Source: Escherichia coli | GTDB lineage: Bacteria; Pseudomonadota; Gammaproteobacteria; Enterobacterales; Enterobacteriaceae | Length of the DNA: 64,000 nt | Assembly: GCF_030013205.1 (NCBI RefSeq) | Contig: NZ_CP122649.1 | Strand: one strand, 5' to 3' | Shown: one piece after another, positions 3,820 through 47,929 of the stretch | Numbering within the stretch: the first letter of the stretch is position 1 | Layout of the letters: every line of letters begins with the position of its first letter | Program-made: the position numbers and the translations under genes | Notes under the pieces: model-generated | Databases searched by the model: none | The model's input: the letters and a program-made list of their open reading frames with translations, nothing else | Told to the model about the DNA's origin: nothing

Positions 3820-3843
3820 AGATAACACATATTTTTACTACAT

Positions 3844-3867
3844 CCCTGATGGCACCTCCCATCGGGG
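3844..3867 (+). promoter_or_regulatory. Leader hairpin (partial member of the CCCAyyGGGG leader family)
   Basis: ccctgatgg (3844-3852) pairs with ccatcgggg (3859-3867), 9 bp with one G.U. It lies 30 nt upstream of ATG 3897. Confidence 0.4.
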
Positions 3868-3896
3868 TGGCCCTCAGAGTTGAATCTGGAGGTCTT

Positions 3897-4775
3897 ATGA
3901 AATTAGCTACAGATCTGGTCAATGCGGTTCTGATAAAGAATGGCATTGTACCAACTTCCATTAATGAGTTGCCTGTAACGTCGCTGGTAAAGCCATTGAC
4001 ACAAGTGCATCTCAGCCTGTATCTGAAAACAACGCATTTATCTCAGTTCGTCCCTGACTACGTTGAGTCTCTGAAAGATTGTCCGGTTTCGTATGATATC
4101 GGCCTTGAACTTCAGCAGTGTATCAACAGTGCTGAATTGCTCTGTGAAGACATGGAGTCACTTGAGTTTATCTCTGTATGGATAGAGCTCTATACGTGTA
4201 ATTCAAAGCAACAGCGGTTTGAGAAAAGTAACTTTTCTTTTCGAACTGAAGATATCGAGCTGGCTAAGATGCTGTCTTGCTCGCATGAAATCTTAATAAG
4301 TCAGGCGGCTTGTTTCTGGCTTTTGTATTTTGAAGATTTCATGAAATATGTTCGTAATAGGCTCTGTGCATTACTCAGACAGGTTTTAATTTTGATTGCA
4401 GGACTGCGAAATGTATACCTGCAACGGAATGAAGATCAGTTGATTAAGAGAGTTAAGCACGGGAATGAAATGCTGGAGGTGACTCTTAAAGCTGTTGCAC
4501 TATGTTCAATAGAAAGGTATCTGAAATCATATGCCTCTTTACGAACAGAAGCGGCGGCTTCTGGGTTTATCAAATGCATTCAGTCTTATATCAGTACTGG
4601 TTGGAGACATGGCTATATAGTCTGTCAATATTCAAAAAATGGACGGTCTCTTGGTAAGTCATTACCACTTTTTATAAAAGAGACATCTGAGCATAATATA
4701 CAGAAACGTGTCAATCGCCTTATATCTTCCACGATTTCGGGGCGAAATAAAGATTTAGGTCTTTACGATTTCTGA
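3897..4775 (+). CDS. hypothetical protein, paralogue family member P1 (292 aa)
   Basis: In-frame ATG at 3897 with SD ggagg, preferred over the tracked start 3810. The N-terminus MKLATDLVNAVLIKNGI resembles the N-termini of the next four genes. Confidence 0.6.
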   Translation: MKLATDLVNAVLIKNGIVPTSINELPVTSLVKPLTQVHLSLYLKTTHLSQFVPDYVESLKDCPVSYDIGLELQQCINSAELLCEDMESLEFISVWIELYTCNSKQQRFEKSNFSFRTEDIELAKMLSCSHEILISQAACFWLLYFEDFMKYVRNRLCALLRQVLILIAGLRNVYLQRNEDQLIKRVKHGNEMLEVTLKAVALCSIERYLKSYASLRTEAAASGFIKCIQSYISTGWRHGYIVCQYSKNGRSLGKSLPLFIKETSEHNIQKRVNRLISSTISGRNKDLGLYDF

Positions 4776-4783
4776 TTAACATT

Positions 4784-4848
4784 ACCCATCCGGGGATTAC
4801 ATCCCTGATGGGTGTAATCCCATTTTTTATTTAAGTGAGGATTACATG
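4784..4848 (+). promoter_or_regulatory. Three-way leader switch upstream of P2
   Basis: A 4784-4795 pairs with A' 4802-4813 (11 bp, 1 mismatch). B gggattaca 4793-4801 pairs with B' tgtaatccc 4813-4821 (9 bp perfect, followed by a U-run). B' also pairs with C ggattaca 4839-4846 (SD plus the A of the ATG). Confidence 0.6.
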
Positions 4849-5781
4849 AAAATTATTGAGAAAATCATTAATGCATTTCTGATATCGCGTAAACATTCAG
4901 TGAAGGTCAGTAATGTTATCTGCTTGAGTGGCACCGACGGTAAATTTACTGGAATATGCTGTGACGCCGATGTTTCATTTGATTTTCTTTATTCGTATGC
5001 CCCCGCATACAGTTCAACATTTTTAGATATCCCGTTTCCTGGGTTTGAAGACCAGGACATCGCGGATTGTGTTAAATGTCAGTTAGATGTAGTTAAAAAT
5101 AAACGGAATCGGTCTTTTTTAATTGACCATATTAGATTTCCAGTTTCCTCAAGGGAAGGATTCACTCTGACACGCGGTGATAGTTACGACGTGACTGAAT
5201 GTGAATATAATAAGGAACGATTGCTACATCTGACCCGACAAGGACGTTTTTGTGAAGACTATCTCACGTTCAAGGATGGCCTGAGTTCCTTCTTTTCATT
5301 TGTGAATTTCGAATTACATGAAATAGTGAAGGAAGGTATACGTTTGGCACTTGATGTTTTAAACAAGATTACATCTGATCAACCAGACCGTCTTATAAAA
5401 GACTTTAAGTATCATGATTGCTTCGGCAGTTATAATGTACAAATATTTTCTAAGGGTCTGCCAGTTGATATCCTTGAAACGATGATTGCACCTGATAGGT
5501 TGTTGTCTAACTTGTCAGGTAGTCGTCAGATTATGAAAAATGCAAGTCGCTATCTTAAAGGCTTTGCCCTCAGTAATCGTGTTTACATGAAATACGGATG
5601 GCGTTTAGCAGATGTTGACACATCTGACTATGCGAAAGTTATGTCAGATAGAGAAATGCATGCCAGAGATGATCTTAAGGCGTTTTGCAGTGTCTTTTTT
5701 AAAGAGTGTTTCGCATCCGGAAAATATGAATACGAAGCATACCTGAGTGAAAGACAACACGCGATTCGTAACGGGTATTAA
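4846..5781 (+). CDS. hypothetical protein, paralogue family member P2 (311 aa)
   Basis: ORF track; SD gagga. It shares MK.I.KII.A.L at the N-terminus and the block SGSRQIMKNASRYLKGF with P3 (SGADKFLNHVNRYLSGR). Confidence 0.7.
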   Translation: MKIIEKIINAFLISRKHSVKVSNVICLSGTDGKFTGICCDADVSFDFLYSYAPAYSSTFLDIPFPGFEDQDIADCVKCQLDVVKNKRNRSFLIDHIRFPVSSREGFTLTRGDSYDVTECEYNKERLLHLTRQGRFCEDYLTFKDGLSSFFSFVNFELHEIVKEGIRLALDVLNKITSDQPDRLIKDFKYHDCFGSYNVQIFSKGLPVDILETMIAPDRLLSNLSGSRQIMKNASRYLKGFALSNRVYMKYGWRLADVDTSDYAKVMSDREMHARDDLKAFCSVFFKECFASGKYEYEAYLSERQHAIRNGY

Positions 5782-5803
5782 TACTTATTATCAACTTATC
5801 TAA

Positions 5804-5861
5804 TCCCTGAGGGAATTCTTCCCTTGGGGAGGATTCCCTCTTAACCGAGGGCTACAAAATG
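5804..5861 (+). promoter_or_regulatory. Three-way leader switch upstream of P3
   Basis: A 5804-5814 pairs with A' 5820-5830 (11 bp, two G.U). B gagggaattc 5809-5818 pairs with B' ggattccctc 5831-5840 (10 bp). B' ccctc also pairs with the SD gaggg at 5847-5851. Confidence 0.6.
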
Positions 5862-6779
5862 AAAGCGATTTATAAAATAATTGAAGCGATGCTGGTGAAA
5901 ATGGGCTTTGAAGGTGCCGTGATCCAAAGTGTCAATCTGGAAACGGGTGTGATTCAGAGTCTAGTTGTTAAGGCTGATATTCCTGTCCGGACTTTAATGC
6001 CGCATTTAAGGCGATATCTGCGCGATTGTGAGCCTTTATGGGGACATGACGTGGATTACCACCCTATAGCACAATATTGCTCAGGAGCTGCGTTGTTGAA
6101 GGCTGGGCCGGTCACTCTTGAAACCTTTCGGTTTGAGGTTTCAGTGTCAACTGCTCACCTGCGGCTTGTGGATGTTGAGCCGGACTGTCTAAATGAGGGT
6201 GTGAACCGTGAAAAACTGGAGTATGTATATTACCGCTCCAGCAATGCAGACAAGGATCTAATACTTGGTATGGTTGAAAAAGGACATAATTTTATCAACC
6301 ATCTGCATGAACTTTTACGCTCGCGCTTATCAACGGCTTTGCCGCTGATTTTCGCAGTTACAGAAAAGATTGCGGAGAGTTCAGTTCCACAAGTAGTCAC
6401 CAGCTTTTTCAGTGTTGACCATCAAATCAATGCCCAGATAGTAGTCGAACCTGTACCCGTTTCAGTCGCAGACCAGATAATTTCTGCTGACTGGAATGTG
6501 TGTAGTGTTTCAGGAGCGGATAAGTTCCTGAACCATGTTAATCGTTATCTGTCGGGTAGGGTGATGAAGCGGCGTATTTACGCTGTTATAGAAGCTTGCG
6601 ACGGTGGATCTTTATCCCTCAATGCGAACTTAGGTTGCTTTACATCACCTCTTCTCGTAACTGAGTATAAAATGGTTCAGTCACACTCTTCATCGCTTTA
6701 TCGAAAGGCTATAAATAACTCGCTTAAGCAAGTTAATTCGTATGCTCCAGAGCATTCAGATGACCTGCTTTCTATGTAA
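5859..6779 (+). CDS. hypothetical protein, paralogue family member P3 (306 aa)
   Basis: ORF track; SD gaggg 7 nt upstream; sequence blocks shared with P2. Confidence 0.7.
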   Translation: MKAIYKIIEAMLVKMGFEGAVIQSVNLETGVIQSLVVKADIPVRTLMPHLRRYLRDCEPLWGHDVDYHPIAQYCSGAALLKAGPVTLETFRFEVSVSTAHLRLVDVEPDCLNEGVNREKLEYVYYRSSNADKDLILGMVEKGHNFINHLHELLRSRLSTALPLIFAVTEKIAESSVPQVVTSFFSVDHQINAQIVVEPVPVSVADQIISADWNVCSVSGADKFLNHVNRYLSGRVMKRRIYAVIEACDGGSLSLNANLGCFTSPLLVTEYKMVQSHSSSLYRKAINNSLKQVNSYAPEHSDDLLSM

Positions 6780-6787
6780 TTAATTTT

Positions 6788-6854
6788 ACCCATTGGGGAA
6801 GCGTATTCCCCGTGGGGGTTGCTTCCTTTCTTCATTAAAGAGGAAGTGAATATG
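6788..6854 (+). promoter_or_regulatory. Three-way leader switch upstream of P4
   Basis: A 6789-6799 pairs with A' 6807-6816 (10 bp, one bulge). B ggaagc 6797-6802 pairs with B' gcttcc 6821-6826. B' cttcct 6822-6827 also pairs with the SD aggaag at 6841-6846. Confidence 0.6.
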
Positions 6855-7787
6855 TTTAATGAAAGTGATGATAAAAACTTTGTTAGTGCAATGCTTAAAT
6901 GTCAACTTGGCCTGAATATAAGCCAAGAGGATATTACAATATATGACAAAGAAAATCATTTTGAACAACTTTCTTTTAAAGCAAATGTGGCGCTTGATGA
7001 TTTGTTATTTTATCTGGATTTATATATATCAGAATTGATTAAGCATAATGCGCCGTATTCTGAAACTGAAGTCCTTCGGACTAAAATCAAATACTTTCTT
7101 AAAGTATATGAAAAGTCTGGTTTTCAGAACATAAGAATTCGCGGTTATCATAACGCGCACAGTACTATAGATATTGTCGATATCGCATCATTAATATTGG
7201 CGGGGTCTGTACCGGAGTCTGAACATGATTCAATAGATCCTGTTTTAAGAAAGGAAATCTATCAAAATCGCATGAGTGTTGAGGGTAAAGTTCTCATTGC
7301 CCGTTTTGCACTTAAGCAATTTTTCCATTCTGATTTTGGTGATTTCATCTTAGAGTTCGAGAAAAGTATCTCCAAGTGTTTGAATACTTCTCTCCAGATA
7401 ATTAAATCTGTAAAGAACTCATTTAACCGTTTAGGTCAATATCAATATCAGCGTCGTGTAAAAGATGACCTGACTTTGCATCTTGATTTGAATACAGATG
7501 AATACCCGGCCTGTATGCCAGACCTTTACATCGGTTTCAAGGAGTCTGAAGGGACGACGGGAGTGTATCGCGATGATGAAAAAATCATTCGTCTTTATAC
7601 TGGCGTTAGTTCCGGAAAGGATGTTCCTGTAATGATGACCGTTCGATTCACTGGCTGTGACGGGAGTGTTTTGTCTGAATCATCGCACGGTACTTTCTGT
7701 TCCGTGGGACCTACCGGCCGAGTGCAGGTTTGTGACAGAGTTGCGTTGGTCCAAGAAGCGGTCGAAGAGTTACGGGATGTTGTTTAA
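6852..7787 (+). CDS. hypothetical protein, paralogue family member P4 (311 aa)
   Basis: ATG 6852 with SD gaggaag, preferred over the tracked start 6819. Clear similarity to P5: GKVLIARFALKQFFHSDFGDFI vs GQVLIARFALEKFWDTHFIGLI, and YQYQRRVKDDLTLHLDL vs YSYTRRITDELSLHISL. Confidence 0.7.
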   Translation: MFNESDDKNFVSAMLKCQLGLNISQEDITIYDKENHFEQLSFKANVALDDLLFYLDLYISELIKHNAPYSETEVLRTKIKYFLKVYEKSGFQNIRIRGYHNAHSTIDIVDIASLILAGSVPESEHDSIDPVLRKEIYQNRMSVEGKVLIARFALKQFFHSDFGDFILEFEKSISKCLNTSLQIIKSVKNSFNRLGQYQYQRRVKDDLTLHLDLNTDEYPACMPDLYIGFKESEGTTGVYRDDEKIIRLYTGVSSGKDVPVMMTVRFTGCDGSVLSESSHGTFCSVGPTGRVQVCDRVALVQEAVEELRDVV

Positions 7788-7902
7788 CCCTTGTTTTTTA
7801 CCTCTTCATTCCAAAAAGTAACTTTGTTCTACCAAATGACCGCGCTACCTATTCTGATCAACTTGCAGGAAAGAATGGCGCAGTAGTACATATTTTTAAT
7901 CC

Positions 7903-7966
7903 ACCCACTGGGGAAGTCGCTCCCCTGTGGGGCACTTCCTTTAATAATCCTGAGGAAGTGAAGATG
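7903..7966 (+). promoter_or_regulatory. Three-way leader switch upstream of P5
   Basis: A 7905-7915 pairs with A' 7921-7931 (10 bp, 1 mismatch). B ggaagt 7913-7918 pairs with B' acttcc 7934-7939. B' cacttcct 7933-7940 also pairs perfectly (8 bp) with the SD region aggaagtg at 7953-7960. Confidence 0.6.
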
Positions 7967-8920
7967 ACTAATTCTACTGATAACCAGAACTACGTTCGTG
8001 CAGTACTGGCAGGCATTGGTATTGATTTTGATGAAACAGAGATGTTTATCAGTGTCTCTCATTGCCAGAGCGACGAAGTTTCGTTTACATGCAGTATATC
8101 AGCCAGTGAGTTAAGAGAATCTGCGGGGCATTATGTGGATACTCTTAATGATACCCAACTGGCTGGCCTGGATGCGGATGCACTCAAGAAGCGACTGGTT
8201 TACTTCCTTGAGGTTTTCGACCTGGTTTCCGGTCAATATCTGGATATTTCCGGTAAACATTTCGCGACCAGCCGCTTTGAATACGACGATGTCTGTAGTG
8301 AGATCCTGAGTAACTCTGCGGACAGCGCCCAGCCAGGTGGCTATGATCGTGAAGAGTACAAAAGACTGATGGAAGTTGATGGTCAGGTTTTAATCGCCCG
8401 ATTTGCACTGGAAAAATTCTGGGATACGCATTTTATTGGGCTTATCAACTATGTATCAGATGAAATAACATCCGGGCTTTATGAGGTTTATCGCACGTTC
8501 AGTGATATAAACATGGCCGGTTATACATTTAGTGAGTATTCATATACGCGTCGTATTACCGACGAACTTAGTTTGCATATTTCACTTAAAGAGGACGATT
8601 TCGAAGAGCAATTAACCGATTGTTATATGGATGAAACAACGCTGCCGTCTGGCAAGGTGGTTTTACGCCGTAATAATGAATCAATTATTGGGATTTATGA
8701 AGGATATGCTTCAAAATCTTACTTTCCTATGGTTGCTAATGTTAGAGTCCTTGATACAGATGGTGAAGTTGTTACTGAACTTTACCAAGGGGTGAATGTA
8801 TCAGAATTAGCTGGTGGTCGGATTAAAATCCATGACCGTCAGGAATTAATTTCTGAGGTGTTCGCTAACTTACGTGAATTCATCCCAGCATCAGAGGATA
8901 AAATCTTTGATGCGGCATGA
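7964..8920 (+). CDS. hypothetical protein, paralogue family member P5 (318 aa)
   Basis: ATG 7964 with SD gaggaag (the tracked start 7958 is a GTG two codons upstream); similarity to P4. Confidence 0.7.
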   Translation: MTNSTDNQNYVRAVLAGIGIDFDETEMFISVSHCQSDEVSFTCSISASELRESAGHYVDTLNDTQLAGLDADALKKRLVYFLEVFDLVSGQYLDISGKHFATSRFEYDDVCSEILSNSADSAQPGGYDREEYKRLMEVDGQVLIARFALEKFWDTHFIGLINYVSDEITSGLYEVYRTFSDINMAGYTFSEYSYTRRITDELSLHISLKEDDFEEQLTDCYMDETTLPSGKVVLRRNNESIIGIYEGYASKSYFPMVANVRVLDTDGEVVTELYQGVNVSELAGGRIKIHDRQELISEVFANLREFIPASEDKIFDAA

Positions 8921-12175: not shown

Positions 12176-13135
12176 ATGGCCAGTGAAGATTTACTCTTTT
12201 ACCGTGACCGGATTCTGGAGCGAATTGAAAAGCTCAGATCCTTTCTGAATGACCATCAGCCGGTGATGGCCGAGCTGATGACTGTGGGGACCGTCACACG
12301 ACACGAAGAGCGGTTGAAAGAGGTGAACCCCATCGAGGTGAGTACTATTTCAGATGCCTCCGTGGATGAAATTATCCGTGTTATTCAGGATTTCTGTATC
12401 GATGACATTGATGTACTCAGCAGGAATTCGACGAAAGTGACAACCAAATACCCGGGTTTGATTATTGTTCCTGAGGGTGCCGAACAGCTGAGCGGAATTA
12501 TTTGCGATATAAATGATGCCAAAAGTGACTTTGCCTCTGCAATGAAAAGGGTGAATTCGGAGAAACACATCCGGTTTAAGGAAGTTCACCGTAAGCTTCC
12601 CGGTCTGGTGACTGCGCATTCCACTCGCAAAATTCTGTTTGTGGAAGAACAGCTCAAAAAAGTTACTTTTGCCTGGCGGCTAAACCGAAACCAGGTAAAA
12701 ACAAACGCAAGTGATCTCATCGCGATGCTGGATAAGCGTCGTTTAGTAGCGGTCAAATCGCCCGTGACAACTGACCTGACAGTGGTGGCGAACATCGATA
12801 GAGCGAAGGCATTACTGGAAAGAAAAGTACTGAGAGACGGCGAAGGGTATCGCCTTTGTCGAACCAATACCTTCCCGGTTCCGATAGCGCATTTGTTCAC
12901 ATACCGGCCTGAAGGCAAGGAGCGTGGAAGTAGCAAATATGCCGAGACTGATTACAAGGTGGTGAAAGCCTCATTACCCATTTTTGGCGTCGGACAAAAG
13001 CCAACAATTAAAAGACTTCAGGACTGGGTGCCAGCGCAGGATGAAGCACTGTCCAATGGTCGAAGGAGCAACCATAGCTACACGGAACTTGTACCCGGTG
13101 CAGATCTTGGCATTTTCATTATGAGAAAGGTCTGA
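12176..13135 (+). CDS. tus: Tus-like replication terminus-binding protein homologue
   Basis: 319 aa, similar in length to E. coli Tus. The block IRFKEVHRKLPGLVTAHSTRKILFV matches the recalled Tus segment [24 protein letters not shown]. SD ggag. The call rests on recall of the Tus sequence. Confidence 0.6.
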   Translation: MASEDLLFYRDRILERIEKLRSFLNDHQPVMAELMTVGTVTRHEERLKEVNPIEVSTISDASVDEIIRVIQDFCIDDIDVLSRNSTKVTTKYPGLIIVPEGAEQLSGIICDINDAKSDFASAMKRVNSEKHIRFKEVHRKLPGLVTAHSTRKILFVEEQLKKVTFAWRLNRNQVKTNASDLIAMLDKRRLVAVKSPVTTDLTVVANIDRAKALLERKVLRDGEGYRLCRTNTFPVPIAHLFTYRPEGKERGSSKYAETDYKVVKASLPIFGVGQKPTIKRLQDWVPAQDEALSNGRRSNHSYTELVPGADLGIFIMRKV

Positions 13136-14341: not shown

Positions 14342-14361
14342 TAGCGCCCGCAGGGGCGCTA
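14342..14361. terminator. Bidirectional hairpin between convergent genes
   Basis: Palindrome tagcgccc gca ggggcgcta, between the plus-strand operon end (14334) and the recombinase stop (14359). Confidence 0.5.
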
Positions 14362-15549
14362 CTCATCCAGCGCCTCACGCATGAACTTCGTCATCGCTTT
14401 CTTACCTGCGTCAATGTTACGGATATAGCGGGAAACCATTTCTGGATTGCTCCAGTTACCCATCTCCATGATCTGCAAGTGCGTGTACCCGGCATTAGCA
14501 AGTTCGATGGCGCCGCCAACCCTAACGCTGTGACCAGTCCAGCATCGGGTGCCCGCTTCCTGCGGATGAAGTTCATCCCAAAACGCTTCAAAGGCCCGGA
14601 GCAATGTGTTTTTACTGAGCATACCCTCATCATCGACAATAATGGGCTTTCCATTTTTCCCGATCGGGGGACGGGTAGGTCGGTAAGGCATATTATGATT
14701 TTTCAGCAGCGTATTGATCTCATTCCCTTTGCTCCGGAGACCCCATCCAGGGGGCATATATCCGCTGTCCTGATAGTTAACTGCCTGGAAGAGATAATCC
14801 TTCGGATGGCTTTGCTGGTCCCTTTTGACCATATCCATCAGCCTGATTAGGGTGGCAGTGAGATGAGGGGTCAGATGATAGGTAAGCAGGGTACTGACAG
14901 TGGATTTTGTCCGGTACACCGTCAGGGTAAAACTGCCTGTCTGTTCATTCAGCACAAGGTCCTGCATCCGAATGCGCCGAAGTTCTGCTGAGCGCAACAG
15001 TGTTTCAAAACCTGTCCAGATAATGCAAAGGTCTCGGAGTTTGCGCACCGACTGTGTCGTACCGTGGGCTTTAATCAAAGCTTTCAGGTCGGAGACTAGG
15101 AATGGCGTTGCCTGACGAGTCACTTTTTGCTCTCGGGCTTCAGCTTGTTCGAGGCTTGCAAGAATACTCTTGACCTTGGATGTGATGATCCCAGGGCGAT
15201 CGAGTGCTTTCCTATGGATACTGTTCAGCGCGTGCAGACAACCTTTAATGCTGCTGTGTGACAGCGAGCCCTGAAGATAGTCCAGATAGGCCAACAACGG
15301 GGGTTCTGTCACCGGGAGAGAACTGGCAGGCCAGGCTTCGTTTCCCTCCTTTCCTGCATTAGCTTGGTACCACTCGTTCCAGGAACGCAGCCATTGAAGG
15401 TAAGTTTTAGCCGTGTTGTATTTCATATGAGAAAAGTAAAAAATGAGCTCCTTAAGGTCATTATTGGGCACCTCAAACGTGACCAGTTCCTGATGGAGGT
15501 CTGAGTCTTCAAACTGTCTGGTTACTGGCTTGCTGTTCATGGTGGTCAC
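14359..15549 (-). CDS. Cre-like tyrosine recombinase
   Basis: 396 aa. LLRSAELRRIRMQDL and WTGHSVRVGGAIELANAGYTHLQIMEMGNWSNPEMVSRYIRN align with the recalled Cre motifs LLRIAEIARIRVKDI and WSGHSARVGAARDMARAG..IMQAGGWTNVNIVMNYIRN (R, H-x-x-R and Y catalytic residues). Confidence 0.8.
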   Translation of the reverse strand: MTTMNSKPVTRQFEDSDLHQELVTFEVPNNDLKELIFYFSHMKYNTAKTYLQWLRSWNEWYQANAGKEGNEAWPASSLPVTEPPLLAYLDYLQGSLSHSSIKGCLHALNSIHRKALDRPGIITSKVKSILASLEQAEAREQKVTRQATPFLVSDLKALIKAHGTTQSVRKLRDLCIIWTGFETLLRSAELRRIRMQDLVLNEQTGSFTLTVYRTKSTVSTLLTYHLTPHLTATLIRLMDMVKRDQQSHPKDYLFQAVNYQDSGYMPPGWGLRSKGNEINTLLKNHNMPYRPTRPPIGKNGKPIIVDDEGMLSKNTLLRAFEAFWDELHPQEAGTRCWTGHSVRVGGAIELANAGYTHLQIMEMGNWSNPEMVSRYIRNIDAGKKAMTKFMREALDE

Positions 15550-16273: not shown

Positions 16274-16549
16274 GTGGCTTCTGTTTCTATCAGCCGTCCC
16301 TCCTGTTCAGCTACTGACGGGGTGGTGCGTAACGGCAAAAGCACCGCCGGACATCAGCGCTATCTCTGCTCTCACTGCCGTAAAACATGGCAACTGCAGT
16401 TCACTTACACCGCTTCTCAACCCGGTACGCACCAGAAAATCATTGATATGGCCATGAATGGCGTTGGATGCCGGGCAACTGCCCGCATTATGGGCGTTGG
16501 CCTCAACACGATTTTACGTCACTTAAAAAACTCAGGCCGCAGTCGGTAA
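16274..16549 (+). CDS. insA: IS1 InsA
   Basis: 91-aa [26 protein letters not shown]..., Zn-finger/HTH protein of IS1. Confidence 0.95.
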
Positions 16550-16971
16550 CCTCGCGCATACAGCCGGGCAGTGACGTCATCGTCTGCGCGGAAATGGACG
16601 AACAGTGGGGCTATGTCGGGGCTAAATCGCGCCAGCGCTGGCTGTTTTACGCGTATGACAGTCTCCGGAAGACGGTTGTTGCGCACGTATTCGGTGAACG
16701 CACTATGGCGACGCTGGGGCGTCTTATGAGCCTGCTGTCACCCTTTGACGTGGTGATATGGATGACGGATGGCTGGCCGCTGTATGAATCCCGCCTGAAG
16801 GGAAAGCTGCACGTAATCAGCAAGCGATATACGCAGCGAATTGAGCGGCATAACCTGAATCTGAGGCAGCACCTGGCACGGCTGGGACGGAAGTCGCTGT
16901 CGTTCTCAAAATCGGTGGAGCTGCATGACAAAGTCATCGGGCATTATCTGAACATAAAACACTATCAATAA
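16468..16971 (+). CDS. insB: IS1 InsB reading frame (expressed as InsAB' by -1 frameshift)
   Basis: ORF track. The slippery A6C motif ttaaaaaac lies at 16523-16531 in the insA/insB overlap. Confidence 0.9.
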
Positions 16972-17251
16972 GTTGGAGTCATTACCTTCAATACGTTGTA
17001 GCTTTTTCCTGAGCTCACGGATTTCAATTTGTTCCGGGGTAATGGGGGAGGCTTTTGGTGTTTTTCCCTGCCGCTCATCACGTAATTAATAGGCTGTATG
17101 TCTAACTTCTGGCCACAGATATAATCGAGCCAGCAGTGCTCGCCGCAGCCGAGCGACAGGGCGAAGCCCCGAGTGAGCGAGGAAGCACCATGGAACAGTA
17201 CTCATAAATTCTGCATACGCTCAATGCCTGCAAAATCACCTCCCCTAGGGG

Positions 17252-17268
17252 TTATCCACTTATCCACG
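17252..17268 (+). promoter_or_regulatory. Two overlapping DnaA boxes of ori2
   Basis: ttatccact + ttatccacg, followed by an AT-rich stretch with two agatct (GATC) sites, as in mini-F ori2. Confidence 0.75.
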
Positions 17269-17361
17269 GGGATATTTTTATAAGATCTTTTTAAATAGTT
17301 GTTAGATCTTTATTTTTAGAATGCCCACAGGCCTTTATCCATGCGGGTTCCAGAGAGGGAT

Positions 17362-17457
17362 CTGTGACAAAACGCCCTTTCAGTGTGACAAATCACCCTC
17401 AAATAGCCGCCCTTTCTGTGACAAGTTGCCCTTAACCCTGTGACAAATTGCCCTCAG
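17362..17457 (+). repeat. ori2 iterons (4 x ~19 bp RepE binding sites)
   Basis: ctgtgacaaaacgcccttt, gtgtgacaaatcaccctca, ctgtgacaagttgccctta, ctgtgacaaattgccctca. Confidence 0.85.
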
Positions 17458-17495
17458 GAAGCGTTGCTTTTCACAAAGTTATCCATCCCTGTTGA

Positions 17496-18308
<813 letters not shown>

Positions 18309-18620
18309 TTGAGGGTTATCTGTCACAGATTTAAGGGTGGTTCGTCACATTTGATCTGGAAGGTTGAGGGTTATCTGTCACAGATTTAAGGGTGGTTCGT
18401 CACATTTGATCTGGAAGGTTGAGGGTGATTTGTCACAGAAAGGGCGGCTATTTGAGGGTGGTTCGTCACATTTGATCTGGAAGGTTGAGGGTGATTTGTC
18501 ACAGTTTTGCTGTTCCCTCCCTGGCATCCTGCGCTTACTCATGGTTTTTTGGCTGTAACCGGTAGTGGAGCCAGAATTGAGGGCAATTTGTCATCCTATC
18601 CTGAGGGTAGTTTGTCACAC
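18309..18620 (+). repeat. incC-type iteron array (about 9 RepE iterons, includes a tandem 55-bp duplication)
   Basis: ttgagggttatctgtcacag at 18309 and 18364. ttgagggtgatttgtcacag at 18419 and 18485. t(t/a)agggtggttcgtcacat at 18331, 18386 and 18452. ttgagggcaatttgtcatcc at 18577. ctgagggtagtttgtcacac at 18601. Confidence 0.85.
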
Positions 18621-18696
18621 TAGATTTTCCCCCTCTTCCCGGGTAATGGTGCCAACTTACTGATTTAGTGTATGATGGTGTTTTTGAGGTGCTCCA

Positions 18697-18972
18697 GTGG
18701 CTTCTGTTTCTATCAGCTGTCCCTCCTGTTCAGCTACTGACGGGGTGGTGCGTAACGGCAAAAGCACTGCCGGACATCAGCGCTATCTCTGCTCTCACTG
18801 CCGTAAAACATGGCAACTGCAGTTCACTTACACCGCTTCTCAACCCGGTACGCACCAGAAAATCATTGATATGGCCATGAATGGCGTTGGATGCCGGGCA
18901 ACCGCCCGCATTATGGGCGTTGGCCTCAACACGATTTTCCGCCATTTAAAAAACTCAGGCCGCAGTCGGTAA
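18697..18972 (+). CDS. insA: IS1 InsA (copy 2)
   Basis: 91-aa ORF differing from copy 1 at two residues. Confidence 0.95.
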
Positions 18973-19394
18973 CCTCGCGCATACAGCCGGGCAGTGACGT
19001 CATCGTCTGCGCGGAAATGGACGAACAGTGGGGTTACGTCGGTGCTAAATCACGCCAGCTCTGGTTGTTTTACGCGTATGACAGGATACGGAGGACGGTT
19101 GTGGCGCACGTATTCGGTGAACGCACGTTGGCCACGCTGGAGCGTCTTCCGGGCCTGCTGTCGGCCTTTGAGGTCGTGGTATGGATGACGGATGACTGGC
19201 CGCTTTATGAATCACGCCTGAAGGGAAAGCTGCACGTTATCAGCAAGCGTTACACTCAGCGCATTGAGCGGCATAACCTGAATCTGAGACAGCATCTGGC
19301 AAGGCTGGGCAGGAAGTCACTGTCGTTCTCAAAATCGGTGGAGCTGCATGACAAAGTCATCGGGCATTATCTGACCATAAAACACTATCAGTAA
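18891..19394 (+). CDS. insB: IS1 InsB reading frame (copy 2)
   Basis: ORF track; A6C slippery site at 18948-18954. Confidence 0.9.
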
Positions 19395-21133: not shown

Positions 21134-21640
21134 TCAGGAGTTTCGGATTTTTGCGCGGTAGGTGTGTTTGACCCTTTCAATTGTCGCAAGAGTTGAATTC
21201 CAGTAGCGTTCAGCGTCAGAACGATAAAGAGCAGCGATAGCCTCTATGGTTTTGGGGGAACAGGTTGCACTGCGATGCACACGGCCTGCCTGGCCAAAGA
21301 CATAGACAAGAATGGACTGGCTACCAGACCGGCCGAACAGGGAGTTGCAAAGCCGCTTCGCTGCGAGCGGTGTCAGATCGGGGGCGTCTTCCTGAGCGTT
21401 CTCGGGAACAACGAATTCCAGAATGAAGCGAAGCATCTCCGATGTCTTGAAACGCTTTACCGCCGCAGACAAACGGGCGGCACGCAGTGCAGTGTCCCAG
21501 TGGTCGCTGCTGAAATTGCGGAGCTCCGCGAGGTAATCCTCTTCCAGGCTTTCATCAGAATAATAAATGCTTTCGTAAAAGCGCTCTGCGGGTGATTGCG
21601 TCTTTTCCATTGGAGAAACCATTTTGCCTAATGTATGCAT
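21134..21640 (-). CDS. hypothetical protein (168 aa)
   Basis: ORF track; starts 3 nt after the stop of the upstream 95-aa gene. Confidence 0.55.
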   Translation of the reverse strand: MHTLGKMVSPMEKTQSPAERFYESIYYSDESLEEDYLAELRNFSSDHWDTALRAARLSAAVKRFKTSEMLRFILEFVVPENAQEDAPDLTPLAAKRLCNSLFGRSGSQSILVYVFGQAGRVHRSATCSPKTIEAIAALYRSDAERYWNSTLATIERVKHTYRAKIRNS

Positions 21641-21643
21641 ACG

Positions 21644-21931
21644 TTAGCATGTAGTGAAATTAAAACAAGGTAAAGACAAAGAACCGCATTCAGGCGTTTC
21701 CCGGAGTAAGCAGGTGGGCTGACAATTCGGCTGCGGTAATATCAAGAGCTCTGTTAATTGAGCGTTAAATGCCTCCCGCTCCAGTCCGGATTGGATGAGA
21801 AAGATCAGGGCCTTTTTCAGAACGGGCGGAATACTCGCAATGTCGAGGAGAATGTTGCCCTCAATAACATGATCGCAATTTTCAAAAAGGTGGGCGTAAC
21901 TCATTACGTGTATTCCATTTATCATTTTCAA
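21644..21931 (-). CDS. hypothetical protein (95 aa)
   Basis: ORF track; first gene of a small minus-strand operon. Confidence 0.5.
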   Translation of the reverse strand: MKMINGIHVMSYAHLFENCDHVIEGNILLDIASIPPVLKKALIFLIQSGLEREAFNAQLTELLILPQPNCQPTCLLRETPECGSLSLPCFNFTTC

Positions 21932-22289
21932 ATCGTGATAAAAATTAGATTACCAGAACGTCAGAAGCAAAAAAAAAGCATTAAGCAGAAATGTATGGTA
22001 TCCATCCTTCCTCCAGCTACCCTTGCGCCCTGATAATTTTATCCTGGGGGAGGGGGCATTGATCATTACATACCCGATCAGAAAAGCCGGGAACCAGAAT
22101 GTCACCCGGATATCGAAGATGCAACGATTCAATATTAGTGTATTTAGCGTCTCCTGGCAGCAAAGTCGGTCGGCCGGAACTGGTAAACTGTATTCCACCT
22201 CGCCCGGGCTGGCAGGCGACTGACGTCTTGTCGGTTCATAGCCGGTGGTCGCGTCTGACAAAACAGGCCCCTACAGTGTAAGGATTGTG

Positions 22290-22682
22290 ATGGACGATAA
22301 AGAGCAGTTTACGAGTCTCGTGGCAAAGCATGCCTCCAGATTCACCGAAGAGCAGCTGGCCGGGTATGATGCCTGTTCCCAGTATGGAGAATGCGTCTCG
22401 CCTTCATACGAAGTATTCCGGGGGTATCGTACCCGCCACACCCTGGATGAATTTCTGGAGCTGGCCATATCGCTGAATGCCATCCACCCGGATGAATATT
22501 TAACGGATATGCTGCTGAAGCCTCATGAGGTGATCGGTGCTCTGGCCGATGAAGGCGACCAGTTGAACAACGCCACCCCGGTTTATTTCTTCCCGGATAC
22601 CGGCGTCTATGCAGCGGCCGTCAGTGAAACCCGTGTGCTCGATGCCTGGCTTTGTTGGCCATGCTACCCGGCGAACTGGTAA
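22290..22682 (+). CDS. hypothetical protein (130 aa)
   Basis: Internal ATG of tracked ORF 22245..22682 with SD aagga. Confidence 0.5.
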   Translation: MDDKEQFTSLVAKHASRFTEEQLAGYDACSQYGECVSPSYEVFRGYRTRHTLDEFLELAISLNAIHPDEYLTDMLLKPHEVIGALADEGDQLNNATPVYFFPDTGVYAAAVSETRVLDAWLCWPCYPANW

Positions 22683-22750
22683 TGCGTCCGTTGGAATTGC
22701 ACCGGCAGGATACGAATTTAACCGACCCCGTGGCGGGAGGGTTATCACAA

Positions 22751-23002
22751 TTGCATGTCCTCATCCCTAAAGTCCCCTGCCAGACCCATACGTGCTGTCA
22801 GGCTTCGCCTGATTTGAGATCAGTGCAAATACTTCAGCCGATAACTTTTTGTTTTCTTTTTATTTTCTCCCTGTTTCCTCAAAATTCGCGTGGGGCCTGG
22901 TCAGGGCACGATTGTCACATAGGGTGTATTGAAGCGGGCTGGATGGTCGGGTGGGCACGACCTGGGTTTGAGTCGGACACTATGTGGGATGAGGACATGC
23001 AA
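22751..23002. repeat. 17-bp perfect inverted repeats bracketing a 218-bp segment
   Basis: ttgcatgtcctcatccc (22751-22767) is the exact reverse complement of gggatgaggacatgcaa (22986-23002). The pair lies in a ~770-bp stretch without a convincing gene. Confidence 0.8.
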
Positions 23003-23452
23003 AATATTCGCTTTATCTGTGAAAACTGTTGTCTCCGGGCAGTCACCAGTTCAAGTTACACCATCCACGTTAGCTTTTAATAAGAGTGGTTACGATGTTC
23101 AGTACTGAGAAAAAATCAGAGCATTTAGGTCAGATCATAGTGATTGATCCGGCGCTTCTTGGGCAGGGTATAGAGGTTGGCCCGGTCGTAGTGTTTGATT
23201 TGGGGCACGCCAGCAAAGGGGTTGCGGACTTGATGCGCGATGCTGAAAAGCTTGATGGTTTATCCCCAACGACAATAGCAAACAGACTTTCACGATGACC
23301 GAACAAGGTCGATTCGGGCAAGGCGGCGGAGGGGCACATCTCCCAATGATAATGAGGTTATGCAACCTGTTAGTCACCGGCTTGCCTGATGCTATGATTG
23401 ACATCTCTTTTGACCGGTCTGTATTTGAGCATTAATTCGTGAGGAATACGGT

Positions 23453-24658
23453 ATGCGCAGTGAAATACCTTCTGGTAGATTTTTTTGTTTGGATGAGTTT
23501 CACAATTTCCATATGAGCGATGATGTCCTTCGTGAAAGACTCCGTTCAATAGACGGCATCCCCGCTGTGAGCTATCAGGTAAATGGCGAAAATGTTTTTG
23601 TGTTCGAGAAACTTGTCCAGCTGGTAAAACAGAATGGCCACAACCTGGAATCAGCCTTAGCTCTCGTTCCGAAGGCAACAATGACCGCCGCAGAGGCTAT
23701 TGAAGCGTGGTCGGTATTCCCCGAGCCGTATTCTCGTGAGACCAATACAATCGACCATAGTCAGGCGATCTATCACCCCTATTTAAATGCGTATCTGCCC
23801 CGGAAATATCCCGACCGTGAATCCTGTAATGCGGATGCGGCCAGATTACTTCTCGGCAATCCTGTCGAGGGTGAGGGGGATTTTGTCTACAGGGGGCAGT
23901 CCATGGTCCTTCGCCAGCCCTTTACCCTGGACCGTCTTCCCCCACGACCTGAATGGGATGTGCCGGTGTCTGAAGATGCCAGTGCCTACACACATCTCTG
24001 GAACACGGATTTTGTCAGTGGCTTCGCACCGGTTACCGAATCACTGTTCAACGGGATAAAATCGGCGGAGTGGGAATGGAACCACGCTATCGCTGCGACA
24101 TACGCATACATGGGAAATCCGGAGTGTATCTCTTCGTTGTGGTCACGGGCGGGTGAGTTCGGACTGGAGCAGCTGGAGCTCAAATCCTGGGACGTTGACG
24201 AGCAAGATCCGGAACACTACCAGCAATTCCAGGCTCTTTACCCGGAGCTGTCCATGTTGTCCCCGGCAATTATCCAGAAAGCCTATGACGAGTATTGTGA
24301 ATCGATGTGGGAAAACCCTGAAAGGTGCGACGGGTTTCTGTATCACCTTATTGGCAGTACCGTCAGTTCGGATATCTCCCGCGACAACCCAGAAAAAACC
24401 GGCAGACTCATCGCTCACGCGTTACTGACGGGGGCCTCGATTGAGGATGCCTGTCGCTTTGCCTCAGAGGCTCAGCAGTTCGATACCGCTCTATCGGGAC
24501 TGGCTTACCAGGTAGCCGTGGCCATGAAATTTGTTGCCGGTGATTCTGCGGCCGTAAGGAATGAAGGCCATCCGGTCATTACACTTTCCGACTCCTTCCG
24601 TCTTATGAGAAAAGCAAATATTAACACCCTGACGGCCACACAGAACAACCGGAAATGA
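23453..24658 (+). CDS. hypothetical protein (401 aa)
   Basis: ORF track; SD gagga 8 nt upstream; no motif recognised. Confidence 0.65.
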   Translation: MRSEIPSGRFFCLDEFHNFHMSDDVLRERLRSIDGIPAVSYQVNGENVFVFEKLVQLVKQNGHNLESALALVPKATMTAAEAIEAWSVFPEPYSRETNTIDHSQAIYHPYLNAYLPRKYPDRESCNADAARLLLGNPVEGEGDFVYRGQSMVLRQPFTLDRLPPRPEWDVPVSEDASAYTHLWNTDFVSGFAPVTESLFNGIKSAEWEWNHAIAATYAYMGNPECISSLWSRAGEFGLEQLELKSWDVDEQDPEHYQQFQALYPELSMLSPAIIQKAYDEYCESMWENPERCDGFLYHLIGSTVSSDISRDNPEKTGRLIAHALLTGASIEDACRFASEAQQFDTALSGLAYQVAVAMKFVAGDSAAVRNEGHPVITLSDSFRLMRKANINTLTATQNNRK

Positions 24659-24827
24659 TGAGCACAAATCGATATGGATGCCGATATTAAGAACGATGAT
24701 TATGTTGACTGTCTCATTGAGCAGGTAACCGTATAGCGGACTGGAACACGAATGCTGATGCTCTACACCAGGCCTGCGGCGCCTTCGTAGATGCACCGCA
24801 TTCAAAACAAACGACAGGTGATAATTT

Positions 24828-25319
24828 ATGAAGTTGACAAAAATGATGGCGACCTTGTTCCTGCTTATTCCCTTGACATCTTTTTCGCAGGAATTGGGCC
24901 AGCGAATATCACAGGATGACAGTGCAGAACTGGCGAATAAGGCAGGTACAGCTTTGACAGAGATGCTTTTGCTAAAAGTTCAGCAATTGCCACAGGTGAA
25001 AAAGAACAGTGGAATGGACCTTGCGGCTGCAAATGACGCTGTTGCTTCCTTACTCAGCAAAGAGTTTTTCATTTTTAAACCAGTTGATGAAATCAGCATA
25101 AAAACCTCTGCTCAAAAATTAAAAGAGCTGAATGATGATGCCGACGCACTTGCTAAGGGGTACACCATCATTCAACCAGATGATGTCGGAAGCTCCTACA
25201 TTTCGTATAAGGTGACGTCCAGCTCTCGAACCTGCTTCATTCGCCTTTCAAAGGATCTGTCATCGTCATTAAATACCAGAATTGTAACTGTGAATAGCAT
25301 GGAGTGTTCGAACCCATAA
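24828..25319 (+). CDS. secreted hypothetical protein (163 aa, signal peptide)
   Basis: N-terminus MKLTKMMATLFLLIPLTSFSQE is typical of a Sec signal peptide. Confidence 0.6.
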   Translation: MKLTKMMATLFLLIPLTSFSQELGQRISQDDSAELANKAGTALTEMLLLKVQQLPQVKKNSGMDLAAANDAVASLLSKEFFIFKPVDEISIKTSAQKLKELNDDADALAKGYTIIQPDDVGSSYISYKVTSSSRTCFIRLSKDLSSSLNTRIVTVNSMECSNP

Positions 25320-47423: not shown

Positions 47424-47625
47424 TTTGTAGCCCTCAGCCAAATGTGTGTAATCACTGTCTAACTATCGTAACAGCCCCTCATCCGCCATAACGACAAAGA
47501 GGAAGCCCTAAACGTAAACGACTACCCCATTATACATTTAGTCATGCCTTTACTAATAACTAGTTACCAAAATAAACACCCCAGATGTGACACCGTCACG
47601 TTTTTCGGCTTTATTTAGTTCATTT

Positions 47626-47669: not shown

Positions 47670-47929
47670 TAGCCCCCCTCATAGTGTAATTGCGGATAAA
47701 AACCCTATTAATCAGTCATATAGCTCAATGGTTGTGCATTCAGGGAATGCGATCGCCACTTAACGGGTTGCGGGTTGTTGGTCACCCGACATCTGTGTGC
47801 TAATCTTTTTCATCTTTAGTCATTAGTAAAGGCGTTACTATAAATGACGCTACGAGAATTTTTTTAACTAGAGAGGTGGATAGGCCAGTGAAAATCTCTC
47901 AGCCAAAACAGTGGGAAAAGGATCGTGAA

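What the first reader, a model, noticed from the sequence alone, without database searches (positions are those of the whole stretch)
22751..23002. 17-bp perfect inverted repeats bracketing a 218-bp segment in a gene-poor gap
ttgcatgtcctcatccc (22751-22767) and its exact reverse complement (22986-23002) flank 218 bp containing a T-rich tract, inside the ~770-bp gap upstream of the 401-aa gene at 23453. A 17-nt perfect inverted pair this close together is very unlikely by chance. Possible explanations are an invertible promoter switch (fimS-like), with a Cre-like recombinase encoded 7 kb away. Other options are a MITE-like relic (no obvious target duplication seen) or the base of a long structured RNA.
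Basis: seen in the sequence. Interest (0 to 1): 0.5.

Follow-up and report, generated by a model that had tools for sequence, protein, structure and literature searches.

The report
Conserved hairpin-forming element of IncHI plasmids
The 17-bp inverted repeat is real and closes a 252-bp non-coding element kept as a single copy, always in one orientation, in about 1,450 IncHI resistance plasmids; it is not an invertible switch and most likely acts as a folded single strand, but its function is unknown.

Summary
In detail: a perfect 17-bp inverted pair (22751-22767 and 22986-23002), 218 nt apart, unique in the window.

The window is an IncHI1 (R27/pHCM1-type) plasmid. The 252-bp unit is a single-copy, unannotated backbone element in about 1,450 plasmids (IncHI1, IncHI2, pNDM-CIT-type). 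It always lies 68 nt after a conserved 130-aa gene, at the left edge of a variable cargo spot.

- **Orientation:** 1,436 of 1,454 records have the same orientation, and no IncHI1 assembly has the flipped form. The invertible-switch reading is therefore not supported.
- **Conservation:** The arms and a 140-nt left core stay conserved (arms 100%, core about 84%) where synonymous sites of the neighbouring gene are saturated (48%). The core holds a second stem, an invariant GC mini-hairpin with a TTC/GAA triloop, and a 30-nt T-rich tract.
- **Variable part:** The right 80 nt vary in sequence but keep their length.
- **Pairing:** One diverged copy has two compensated changes in the arms.
- **What is absent:** No promoter, terminator, Rfam family, conserved ORF, target duplication or second copy was found, and there is no similarity to known Frpo/ssi.

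My best reading, at low confidence, is a cis-acting hairpin that works in single-stranded form. I favour single-stranded DNA (ssi-like) slightly over a transcript-level structure. The function remains unproven.

The parts
22290..22682 (+). 130-aa gene of unknown function; the constant upstream neighbour of the element in all IncHI clades
   Evidence: Annotated as hypothetical in pHCM1 and IncHI2 plasmids. No Pfam, NCBIfam or PHROG family. Narrow family of 28 clusters. All homologues whose encoding contigs I looked up are followed by the element. The AF2 model has low confidence, pLDDT 58.6.
22683..22750 (.). 68-nt spacer between the gene's stop codon and the left arm
   Evidence: 96% identical between IncHI1 and IncHI2 but only 60% between IncHI1 and the pNDM-CIT type. 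No terminator-like site.
22751..22767 (.). Left arm of the 17-bp perfect inverted repeat (helix P1)
   Evidence: Sequence invariant in IncHI1, IncHI2 and the pNDM-CIT type. Two positions changed together with their partners in the L004 copy.
22775..22787 (.). 5' strand of the second helix (P2), CCCTGCCAGACCC
   Evidence: Pairs with 22893-22906 and is predicted on both strands. 82% of cells paired across 13 variants, with one compensated pair, A.C / G-C / A-T.
22797..22813 (.). Invariant mini-hairpin GTCAGGC-TTC-GCCTGAT; on the minus strand it reads GGC-GAA-GCC
   Evidence: Identical in all 13 variants, including the 3-nt loop. The same GC-stem/GAA(A)-loop type occurs in G4 oric stem-loop I, in ColIb Frpo1-3 and in F ssiE.
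22840..22875 (.). Conserved T-rich tract (A-rich on the minus strand), unpaired in the folds
   Evidence: Near-invariant block GATAACTTTTTGTTTTCTTTTTATTTTCT in all IncHI clades; shortened in L004.
22893..22906 (.). 3' strand of helix P2, GGGCCTGGTCAGGG
22907..22985 (.). Variable right segment: 79-80 nt in all IncHI clades, 50-65% identical between clades, with no significant fold of its own
22986..23002 (.). Right arm of the inverted repeat. Its outer end is where homology between IncHI lineages stops.
   Evidence: The right flanks are unrelated from the first base after the arm in at least 5 lineages.
23003..25319 (+). Lineage-specific cargo spot next to the element. Here it holds 68-aa, 401-aa and 163-aa ORFs; elsewhere a trypsin-like protease or hipBA.

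Best explanation
The 252-bp unit (22751-23002) is a conserved, single-copy, cis-acting element of the IncHI plasmid backbone, and it works when the DNA or its transcript is single-stranded. The 17-nt arms pair to close a branched hairpin. Inside it are a conserved 140-nt left domain (a second stem, an invariant GC mini-hairpin with a three-base loop, and an unpaired 30-nt T/A-rich tract) and a right spacer of constant length but free sequence. The concrete mechanism I favour is a single-stranded-DNA signal on the minus strand. That strand is the template strand of all neighbouring genes and, by the usual relaxase-enters-last rule, the strand transferred in conjugation. Host proteins (primase, primosome or RNA polymerase, with SSB) would recognise the folded DNA, in the manner of ssi/Frpo elements and the phage G4 complementary-strand origin. 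The element marks the boundary between a backbone gene and a cargo hotspot. What is shown: the repeat, its conservation, its fixed orientation, its complementarity, three compensated pairs and the sharp homology boundaries. What is inferred: that it folds in vivo, which strand and which molecule is active, and any priming or transcription activity.
For: - **Selection on the element.** Between IncHI1 and the pNDM-CIT type the arms are 100% and the left core 83.5% identical, while the adjacent gene's third codon positions (48%) and the spacer (60%) are saturated.
- **Distribution.** One copy per replicon in about 1,450 plasmids, in the same place and orientation.
- **Pairing.** 92.9% of cells pair in three helices, against 24-42% when partners are slid. 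Two arm positions are compensated in the diverged L004 copy and one in P2.
- **Why a single-stranded state is needed.** Arms 218 nt apart cannot extrude as a cruciform; this rests on established knowledge of DNA.
- **Strand-neutral helices.** Nearly all pairs are Watson-Crick, so the helices form on either strand.
- **Fold stability.** DNA folds give z = -4.4 on the minus strand and -2.3 on the plus strand.
- **Mini-hairpin precedent.** The invariant mini-hairpin reads GGC-GAA-GCC on the minus strand. The same type occurs in G4 oric stem-loop I, ColIb Frpo1-3 and F ssiE.
- **Likely transferred strand.** mobI and mobH are on the plus strand of pHCM1, with oriT expected just upstream of mobI. 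This makes the minus strand the likely transferred strand.
- **Room for an unknown signal.** H-NS-type plasmids such as IncHI are reported to lack known Frpo (PMC12826799), so an unrecognised single-strand signal is plausible.
- **No plasmid partner.** The one non-IncHI plasmid carrying a copy shares no homologue of any window 1-36 kb ORF in the 90 kb compared and has no Tus-like gene in its first 175 kb. This points to host factors, although that copy may be an inactive captured fragment.
Against: [quoted passage not shown]
- There is no -35/-10 pair in the stem, and the fold is branched rather than one long imperfect hairpin as in Frpo.
- The element lies about 88 kb from the expected oriT, not in a leading region in the narrow sense.
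- The direction of IncHI transfer is inferred, not known.
- Covariation evidence is thin: 25 of 37 pairs never vary, and two of the three compensated pairs come from one sequence.
- The sequence invariance of the arms would also fit two protein-binding sites on duplex DNA.
- The GCGAAGC heptamer is common in this window (11 occurrences against 7.8 expected).
- In ColIb the analogous hairpin overlaps a Shine-Dalgarno complement, so it may serve translation there. This is my own reading of the sequences.
Confidence: 0.3

Rival explanations
1. Transcript-level structure. The element is read through from the 130-aa gene as part of a plus-strand polycistronic RNA. Its 17-bp stem and branched fold would act as an intercistronic or 3'-UTR device, for example an RNase III processing site, an mRNA stabiliser or an insulator between the backbone gene and the cargo. 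The conserved U-rich loop would bind a protein or another RNA.
For: - It has the same orientation as all flanking genes in every IncHI clade, and no terminator-like site lies between the gene and the element or inside it.
- The plus-strand RNA fold is -98.3 kcal/mol with z = -3.9.
- The closing pair of the mini-hairpin is G.U on the plus strand in 11 of 13 variants and A-U in one.
- The block shared by IncHI1 and IncHI2 is exactly RBS + gene + element, 22261-23002.
Against: - No Rfam family at E <= 1 on either strand.
- It has no promoter or terminator of its own.
- The helices carry almost no G.U pairs, which is unusual for a selected RNA structure.
- The one informative P2 pair runs A.C / G-C / A-T on the plus strand, which is a wobble series only on the minus strand.
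- The right 80 nt have no significant fold.
- The arms are invariant in sequence although pairing alone would allow change.
Confidence: 0.25
2. Duplex-DNA site. The two arms are identical binding sites, in inverted orientation about 235 bp apart, for one sequence-specific protein. The conserved core holds further sites, such as the 15-bp palindrome TCAGGC-TTC-GCCTGA, and the complex loops or blocks DNA. One version is a pair of Ter-like sites for the plasmid's own Tus-like protein.
For: - The arms are invariant in sequence across clades where neutral sites are saturated.
- The right spacer has a constant length but free sequence, which suggests a distance constraint.
- IncHI1, the pNDM-CIT type and IncHI2 all encode a Tus-like protein (100%, 86% and 60% identity). 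It is only remotely related to E. coli Tus (E = 6e-5), and no canonical Ter site is present in the window.
Against: - The copy in the F-like plasmid keeps perfectly matched arms through two changes, although that plasmid has no Tus-like gene in 1-175 kb (tblastn) and none annotated in 173-186 kb. It also shares no homologue of any window 1-36 kb ORF in the 90 kb compared.
- The arms match the Ter consensus poorly (my own alignment). If read as Ter, their non-permissive faces would point outward, the reverse of a fork trap.
- GC skew does not change sign at the element.
- Nested complementarity (P1, P2 and the mini-hairpin) is more simply explained by folding.
Confidence: 0.15
3. A MITE-like relic: a non-autonomous transposon with 17-bp terminal inverted repeats that inserted once in an IncHI ancestor and has been kept or domesticated.
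For: - It has terminal inverted repeats and sharply defined ends. Homology between lineages starts and stops exactly at the arm ends.
- A copy exists in an unrelated F-like plasmid without the 130-aa gene.
Against: - There is one copy per replicon in about 1,450 plasmids, and a median of one per E. coli genome.
- No other contexts were found in scans of genomes, viral contigs or metagenomes.
- No target-site duplication is seen in any lineage (reading), and no partner element with these ends was found.
- The internal core is under stronger constraint than a parked MITE would be.
- The F-like copy lies in a transposon-made mosaic together with IncHI2-derived DNA, so it looks like a captured fragment.
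Confidence: 0.08
4. An invertible promoter switch (fimS-like), flipped by the tyrosine recombinase encoded at 14359-15549.
For: Inverted repeats bracket a short segment, and a Phage_integrase-family gene is on the plasmid.
Against: - The orientation is the same in 1,436 of 1,454 records. No record holds the flipped form; that test is only sensitive for the roughly 234 IncHI1-type records.
- No promoter-like site lies inside the segment in three clades.
- The recombinase is 7 kb away here and about 52 kb away in IncHI2 pOSUKPC4.
- The segment is asymmetric, with a conserved left part and a free right part, and it is selected as a fold-compatible unit.
Confidence: 0.02

Closest known systems
Frpo / ssi single-stranded-DNA promoters and priming signals of F (ssiD, ssiE) and ColIb-P9 (Frpo1-3)
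   Same: Non-coding units of 190-350 nt (the five reference sequences) in large conjugative plasmids that are defined by self-complementarity. They act only as folded single strands, depend on host proteins and are orientation-specific. They contain a GC-stem hairpin with a GAA or GAAA loop.
   Different: There is no sequence similarity. Frpo is one long imperfect hairpin carrying -35 and -10 hexamers and an UP element, whereas this element is branched, has a perfect 17-bp basal stem and has no promoter hexamers. Frpo occurs in several copies in the leading region next to ssb, psiB and anti-defence genes. This element is single-copy and about 88 kb from the expected oriT.
Phage G4 origin of complementary-strand synthesis (oric)
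   Same: A structured single-stranded-DNA signal containing a GC-rich hairpin with a GCGAAAGC-type loop. It is recognised by host primase in the presence of SSB (established knowledge).
   Different: G4 oric is about 130 nt with three simple hairpins and a defined CTG start just 3' of stem-loop I. Here no such start can be assigned, no long basal stem exists in G4, and BLAST found no similarity to any phage record.
fimS-type invertible promoter switches
   Same: Short inverted repeats flank a segment of a few hundred bp, and a tyrosine recombinase is encoded on the same replicon.
   Different: Only one orientation is seen in assemblies, there is no internal promoter, the recombinase is not adjacent, and the repeats are 17 bp and perfectly conserved together with an internal fold.
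MITEs and ERIC-like palindromic intergenic units of enterobacteria
   Same: Intergenic, probably transcribed, bounded by inverted repeats, with sharp ends and a sequence conserved without coding capacity.
   Different: Those elements are dispersed in many copies. This one is single-copy, syntenic, restricted to one plasmid backbone, and has no target duplication.

Membership tests
Invertible promoter switch (fimS-like) | Both orientations of the segment occur in sequenced populations or assemblies | tested here: not met
   1,436 of 1,454 records are collinear with the left flank. 0 of 1,165 records cover a flipped query. Raw reads were not examined.
Invertible promoter switch (fimS-like) | A promoter inside the invertible segment | tested here: not met
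   No sigma-70-like site inside the element in IncHI1, IncHI2 or the pNDM-CIT type. This was a consensus scan only.
Invertible promoter switch (fimS-like) | A dedicated recombinase gene next to the switch | tested here: not met
   The recombinase is 7.2 kb away in the window and about 52 kb away in IncHI2 pOSUKPC4.
MITE | Terminal inverted repeats | tested here: met
   17-bp perfect arms; 19 bp in IncHI2; 27 nt at 89% in L004.
MITE | Target-site duplication flanking the ends | tested here: not met
   No direct repeat is seen at the junctions in any of 7 lineages (sequences).
MITE | Multiple dispersed copies, or a related autonomous element | tested here: not met
   One place per record and a median of one per E. 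coli genome. Pattern scans of genome, viral and metagenome collections gave only IncHI-type copies or chance hits.
Frpo / ssi single-stranded-DNA promoters | Sequence similarity to known Frpo/ssi (the criterion used in published surveys) | tested here: not met
   The best hit to the five reference sequences is an 11-nt match with E = 0.22, and nothing was found elsewhere in the window.
Frpo / ssi single-stranded-DNA promoters | A long hairpin presenting -35 and -10 hexamers (and an UP element) in duplex form | tested here: not met
   The fold is branched with a 17-bp basal stem. No hexamer pair with 16-18 nt spacing is found in or across the stem (and inspection).
Frpo / ssi single-stranded-DNA promoters | Location on the transferred strand in the leading region, upstream of early genes | tested here: inconclusive
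   The expected oriT is upstream of mobI at about 200.7-201.4 kb of pHCM1, and the element is at 112.9 kb. Downstream genes are co-oriented. The transfer polarity of IncHI is inferred, not known.
Frpo / ssi single-stranded-DNA promoters | Strand-specific initiation of RNA or primer synthesis on single-stranded DNA | not testable with these tools
   Needs an M13-delta-ori assay or an in vitro assay.
Described RNA families (Rfam 15) | A match to a curated covariance model | tested here: not met
   No match at E <= 1 in 21500-24500 on either strand.
Tus-Ter replication fork barrier | Ter core consensus GNRNGTTGTAAYKA | tested here: not met
   No match with up to 1 mismatch anywhere in the window. 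The plasmid's Tus-like protein is very remote from E. coli Tus, so its own site is unknown.
Tus-Ter replication fork barrier | Binding of Tus and polar fork arrest | not testable with these tools
   Needs binding assays and two-dimensional gels. GC skew shows no switch at the site.

The most novel reading that the evidence does not exclude
The element is a new class of single-stranded-DNA signal, unrelated in sequence to Frpo. It would operate in IncHI plasmids, H-NS-encoding plasmids reported to lack known ssDNA promoters. It would fold on the incoming transferred strand and recruit host primase, primosome or RNA polymerase, either to start complementary-strand synthesis or to give early expression of the adjacent cargo hotspot (hipBA, protease and other genes).
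Probability: 0.15. Interest if true: 0.7.

Novelty: new variant of a known kind. Interest (0 to 1): 0.4.

Why it matters
IncHI1 and IncHI2 plasmids are major carriers of multidrug resistance in Salmonella Typhi, E. coli and Enterobacter.

This element is one of the most constrained non-coding stretches in their backbone. It is more conserved than the synonymous sites of the gene next to it, yet it is annotated in none of about 1,450 plasmid records.

It sits exactly at the edge of a spot where different lineages carry different cargo. If it is a single-strand signal, it would give IncHI plasmids a counterpart to the Frpo/ssi elements that they are reported to lack. That would make the establishment step of these plasmids testable.

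If it is a transcript structure or a protein-binding site, it is still a defined handle for studying how the backbone is insulated from its cargo. It is also a stable sequence marker for the IncHI backbone.

Tried and rejected
- **Invertible switch.** Rejected on assembly orientation and on the absence of an internal promoter.
- **Known RNA family.** Rfam gave no hit.
- **Known Frpo/ssi.** No similarity. An 11-nt match, CCTGCCAGACC, to F ssiE has E = 0.22, and I treat it as chance.
- **Coding.** A 142-aa ORF spans the element in the window, but it is broken by stops in IncHI2, and a short peptide frame shared with L004 is not kept (reading).
- **MITE.** Single copy, no target duplication and no partner element.
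- **The F-like plasmid copy as evidence for mobility or for orientation independence.** Rejected after I found that it lies in a transposon-made mosaic next to IncHI2-derived DNA.
- **Structured right-hand hairpin (P3).** RNAalifold suggested covariation. However, the region has no significant fold in any clade, and the predicted structures differ between clades.
- **Strand assignment from P2 duplex energies.** The results were mixed between clades.
- **Ter sites for the plasmid Tus-like protein.** No consensus match, no skew switch and no Tus in the F-like plasmid. I keep this only as part of a low-probability rival.
- **attC and Xer/dif-like sites.** The arms lack the R-box (GTTRRRY) and XerC/XerD arm sequences (inspection against established consensus).
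- **Function of the 130-aa gene.** No family was found, and the AF2 model has low confidence, so I ran no fold search.
- **Wider homologues.** Scans of genome, viral and metagenome collections added no new clade.
- **Literature on R27/pHCM1 non-coding features.** Nothing relevant was found.

Full report
**Observation.** The repeat is exactly as described. TTGCATGTCCTCATCCC sits at 22751-22767 and its perfect reverse complement at 22986-23002, 218 nt apart. With up to three mismatches allowed, the 17-mer occurs nowhere else in the window, and shuffles give 0.12 matches. By simple counting, a perfect 17-nt inverted pair within 300 nt is expected about 0.001 times in 64 kb. It is the only perfect, widely spaced inverted pair in the window.

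**Where the window comes from.** The region is 99.7-100% identical to IncHI1 plasmids such as pHCM1 of Salmonella Typhi CT18. The local order in the window is:
- a Tus-like gene;
- a 302-aa ORF;
- a tyrosine recombinase on the minus strand;
- hha;
- an IS1-flanked RepFIA repE;
- a CoiA_N-like gene;
- a 168-aa ORF on the minus strand;
- a 130-aa gene (22290-22682);
- the element;
- ORFs of 68, 401 and 163 aa;
- two HNH endonuclease genes, and further on hns.

IncHI2 plasmids keep the same backbone order, with a 20-kb tellurite-resistance cluster inserted before the 130-aa gene.

**Distribution.**
- BLAST against 72,556 plasmids finds the unit in 1,454 records, always at one place per record. 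These are IncHI1 (98-100% identity), IncHI2 (80-84%), the pNDM-CIT-type 'IncHI1B' group (76%) and three F-like plasmids with a diverged copy.
- In 5,426 complete E. coli genomes there are 397 plasmid and 14 chromosomal places, with a median of one per genome.
- No phage record matches, and no annotation lies over the element in any record.
- Pattern scans of one genome per species, of viral contigs and of metagenomes returned only IncHI-type copies or chance matches.
- Every homologue of the 130-aa gene whose encoding contig I looked up, down to 58% protein identity, is followed by the element.

**The switch idea.**
- In 1,436 of 1,454 records, a query made of 51 nt of left flank plus the whole element aligns in one piece on one strand.
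- A synthetic query with the 218-bp segment flipped found no record spanning the flipped junctions; the best hits matched only the two flanks. That second test is sensitive only for the roughly 234 IncHI1-type records, because the right flank is not shared with IncHI2.
- No sigma-70-like promoter or intrinsic terminator lies in the element in any of three clades.
- The recombinase is 7 kb away here and about 52 kb away in an IncHI2 plasmid.

Apart from the repeats themselves, the switch reading has no support.

**Anatomy and constraint.** An alignment of 13 distinct variants shows the following parts.
- *Arms.* They are invariant in all IncHI clades. The only exceptions are the outermost pair in L044 and the innermost pair in the two pNDM-CIT-type copies.
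- *Left core of about 140 nt.* It holds a second complementary pair of segments (22775-22787 with 22893-22906), an invariant mini-hairpin GTCAGGC-TTC-GCCTGAT (22797-22813) and a near-invariant T-rich tract (22840-22875).
- *Right segment of 79-80 nt.* Its sequence is free, its length is fixed, and it has no significant fold.

Region-wise identities make the selection plain.

| Comparison | Gene, third codon positions | Gene, overall | Spacer | Left core | Arms | Right segment |
|---|---|---|---|---|---|---|
| Window vs pNDM-CIT type | 48% | 68% | 60% | 83.5% | 100% | 65% |
| Window vs IncHI2 | 91% | 95% | 96% | 86% | 100% | 64% |

In the IncHI2 comparison the gene and spacer are far closer than the element, so a recombination breakpoint sits at the left arm.

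On the right side, the flanks are unrelated from the first base after the arm in at least five lineages. This holds even between IncHI2 plasmids whose left flanks are 99.7% identical. The element is therefore a discrete, selected unit at the edge of a variable cargo spot. That spot holds the 68-aa and 401-aa ORFs in IncHI1 and a trypsin-like protease or hipBA in IncHI2.

**Does it fold?**
- Both strands fold well below shuffled controls. As DNA, z = -2.3 (plus strand) and -4.4 (minus strand). As RNA, z = -3.9 and -4.4.
- For a structure of three helices that I specified myself (P1 arms, P2, mini-hairpin), 92.9% of cells pair, against 24-42% when partners are slid.
- Most pairs never vary, so the evidence for selection on pairing rests on three compensated pairs. 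Two are in the arms of the diverged L004 copy (TTGCATGCCATCATCCC / GGGATGATGGCATGCAA). One is in P2, with the series A.C, G-C, A-T. This exceeds most shuffles (11 of 500 and 9 of 500) but is thin.
- The covariation that RNAalifold suggested in the right-hand part does not stand up.
- Arms 218 nt apart cannot form a cruciform in duplex DNA, so any pairing needs a single-stranded state.

**Which molecule and which strand?** This stays open.
- *For RNA.* The element is co-oriented with all its neighbours, no terminator intervenes, and the closing pair of the mini-hairpin is G.U on the plus strand.
- *For DNA.* The helices are almost purely Watson-Crick, so they form on either strand. The arms are constrained in sequence as well as in pairing. 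On the minus strand the invariant mini-hairpin reads GGC-GAA-GCC. This is the GC-stem/GAA(A)-loop type also present in stem-loop I of the G4 complementary-strand origin, at the start of all three ColIb-P9 Frpo sequences, and in F ssiE.
- *The likely transferred strand.* The minus strand is the template of all neighbouring genes. In pHCM1, mobI and the MobH relaxase are on the plus strand, with oriT expected just upstream of mobI. By the usual rule that the relaxase operon enters last, the minus strand is then the transferred strand.
- *Against an Frpo-type promoter.* There is no similarity to known Frpo/ssi, no -35/-10 pair in duplex form, a branched fold, and a distance of about 88 kb from the expected oriT.
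- *Literature context.* IncHI-type (H-NS-encoding) plasmids are reported to lack known Frpo (PMC12826799; reference set from PMC11541004).

**The non-IncHI copy.** The copy in Citrobacter plasmid NZ_CP083652.1 first looked like evidence for mobility. It lacks the 130-aa gene and faces the other way relative to local genes.

On closer inspection it sits in a mosaic. The left flank, up to 57 nt from the arm, is a sequence repeated three times in that plasmid next to IS5075 copies. On the right, 594 nt from the arm, lies a remnant of the IncHI2 CoiA-like gene end joined to the IncHI2-type ter cluster at 95.6% identity. I read it as a captured fragment of an unsampled IncHI-like lineage.

It remains useful for two points. 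Its arms carry two compensated changes. The plasmid also has no Tus-like gene (tblastn over 1-175 kb; none annotated in 173-186 kb) and no homologue of the window's first 36 kb of ORFs in the 90 kb compared.

**Verdict.** The repeat is real and far beyond chance. It is the closing stem of a conserved 252-bp cis element specific to the IncHI backbone.

| Reading | Confidence |
|---|---|
| Single-stranded-DNA (ssi-like) signal on the minus strand | 0.30 |
| Read-through transcript structure | 0.25 |
| Paired duplex binding sites | 0.15 |
| MITE relic | 0.08 |
| Invertible switch | 0.02 |

It belongs to no described family that I could test. Its kind, a hairpin-forming cis element of a conjugative plasmid, is known, so I rate it a new variant of a known kind with moderate interest.

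Noticed in passing
window 47539-47562 and 47817-47840: A second intergenic unit bounded by inverted repeats: 24-nt arms, 88% complementary, 254 nt apart. It is conserved as a single unannotated copy in 285 IncHI1 and pNDM-CIT-type plasmids.
   Followed up: partly
window 22112-22261: A 150-bp non-coding stretch upstream of the 130-aa gene is 94.7% identical between IncHI1 and the pNDM-CIT type, while the gene itself is only 68% identical. It is either a conserved regulatory region or a recombination patch.
   Followed up: no
window 23003-25319, compared with L002, L005, L006, L044: The DNA immediately to the right of the element is a cargo hotspot. Closely related IncHI2 plasmids carry unrelated genes there (a trypsin-like protease, hipBA, others), all on the same strand, followed by a shared pair of HNH endonuclease genes and hns.
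   Followed up: partly
window 12176-13135: A plasmid-encoded Tus-like protein that is only remotely related to E. coli Tus (E = 6e-5). It is shared by IncHI1, IncHI2 (60% identity) and, at 23% identity, by many Klebsiella plasmids. No canonical Ter site occurs in the window, so its binding site is unknown.
   Followed up: partly
window 3810-8920: A run of five co-oriented ORFs of 306-322 aa with no Pfam match. 6819-7787 and 7958-8920 are paralogues (28% identity over 314 aa), and 4846-5781 and 5859-6779 are weakly related.
   Followed up: partly
window 16468-19394: The RepFIA repE replicon of this IncHI1 plasmid is flanked by two IS1 copies (using pHCM1 annotation). It is absent from the syntenic IncHI2 region, so it looks like an inserted module.
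   Followed up: no
L004 / NZ_CP083652.1, 135-175 kb: An F-like (MOBF) Citrobacter plasmid carries IncHI2-type sil, pco and ter clusters and a diverged copy of the element. A dsbA-like segment is repeated three times next to IS5075 copies.
   Followed up: partly
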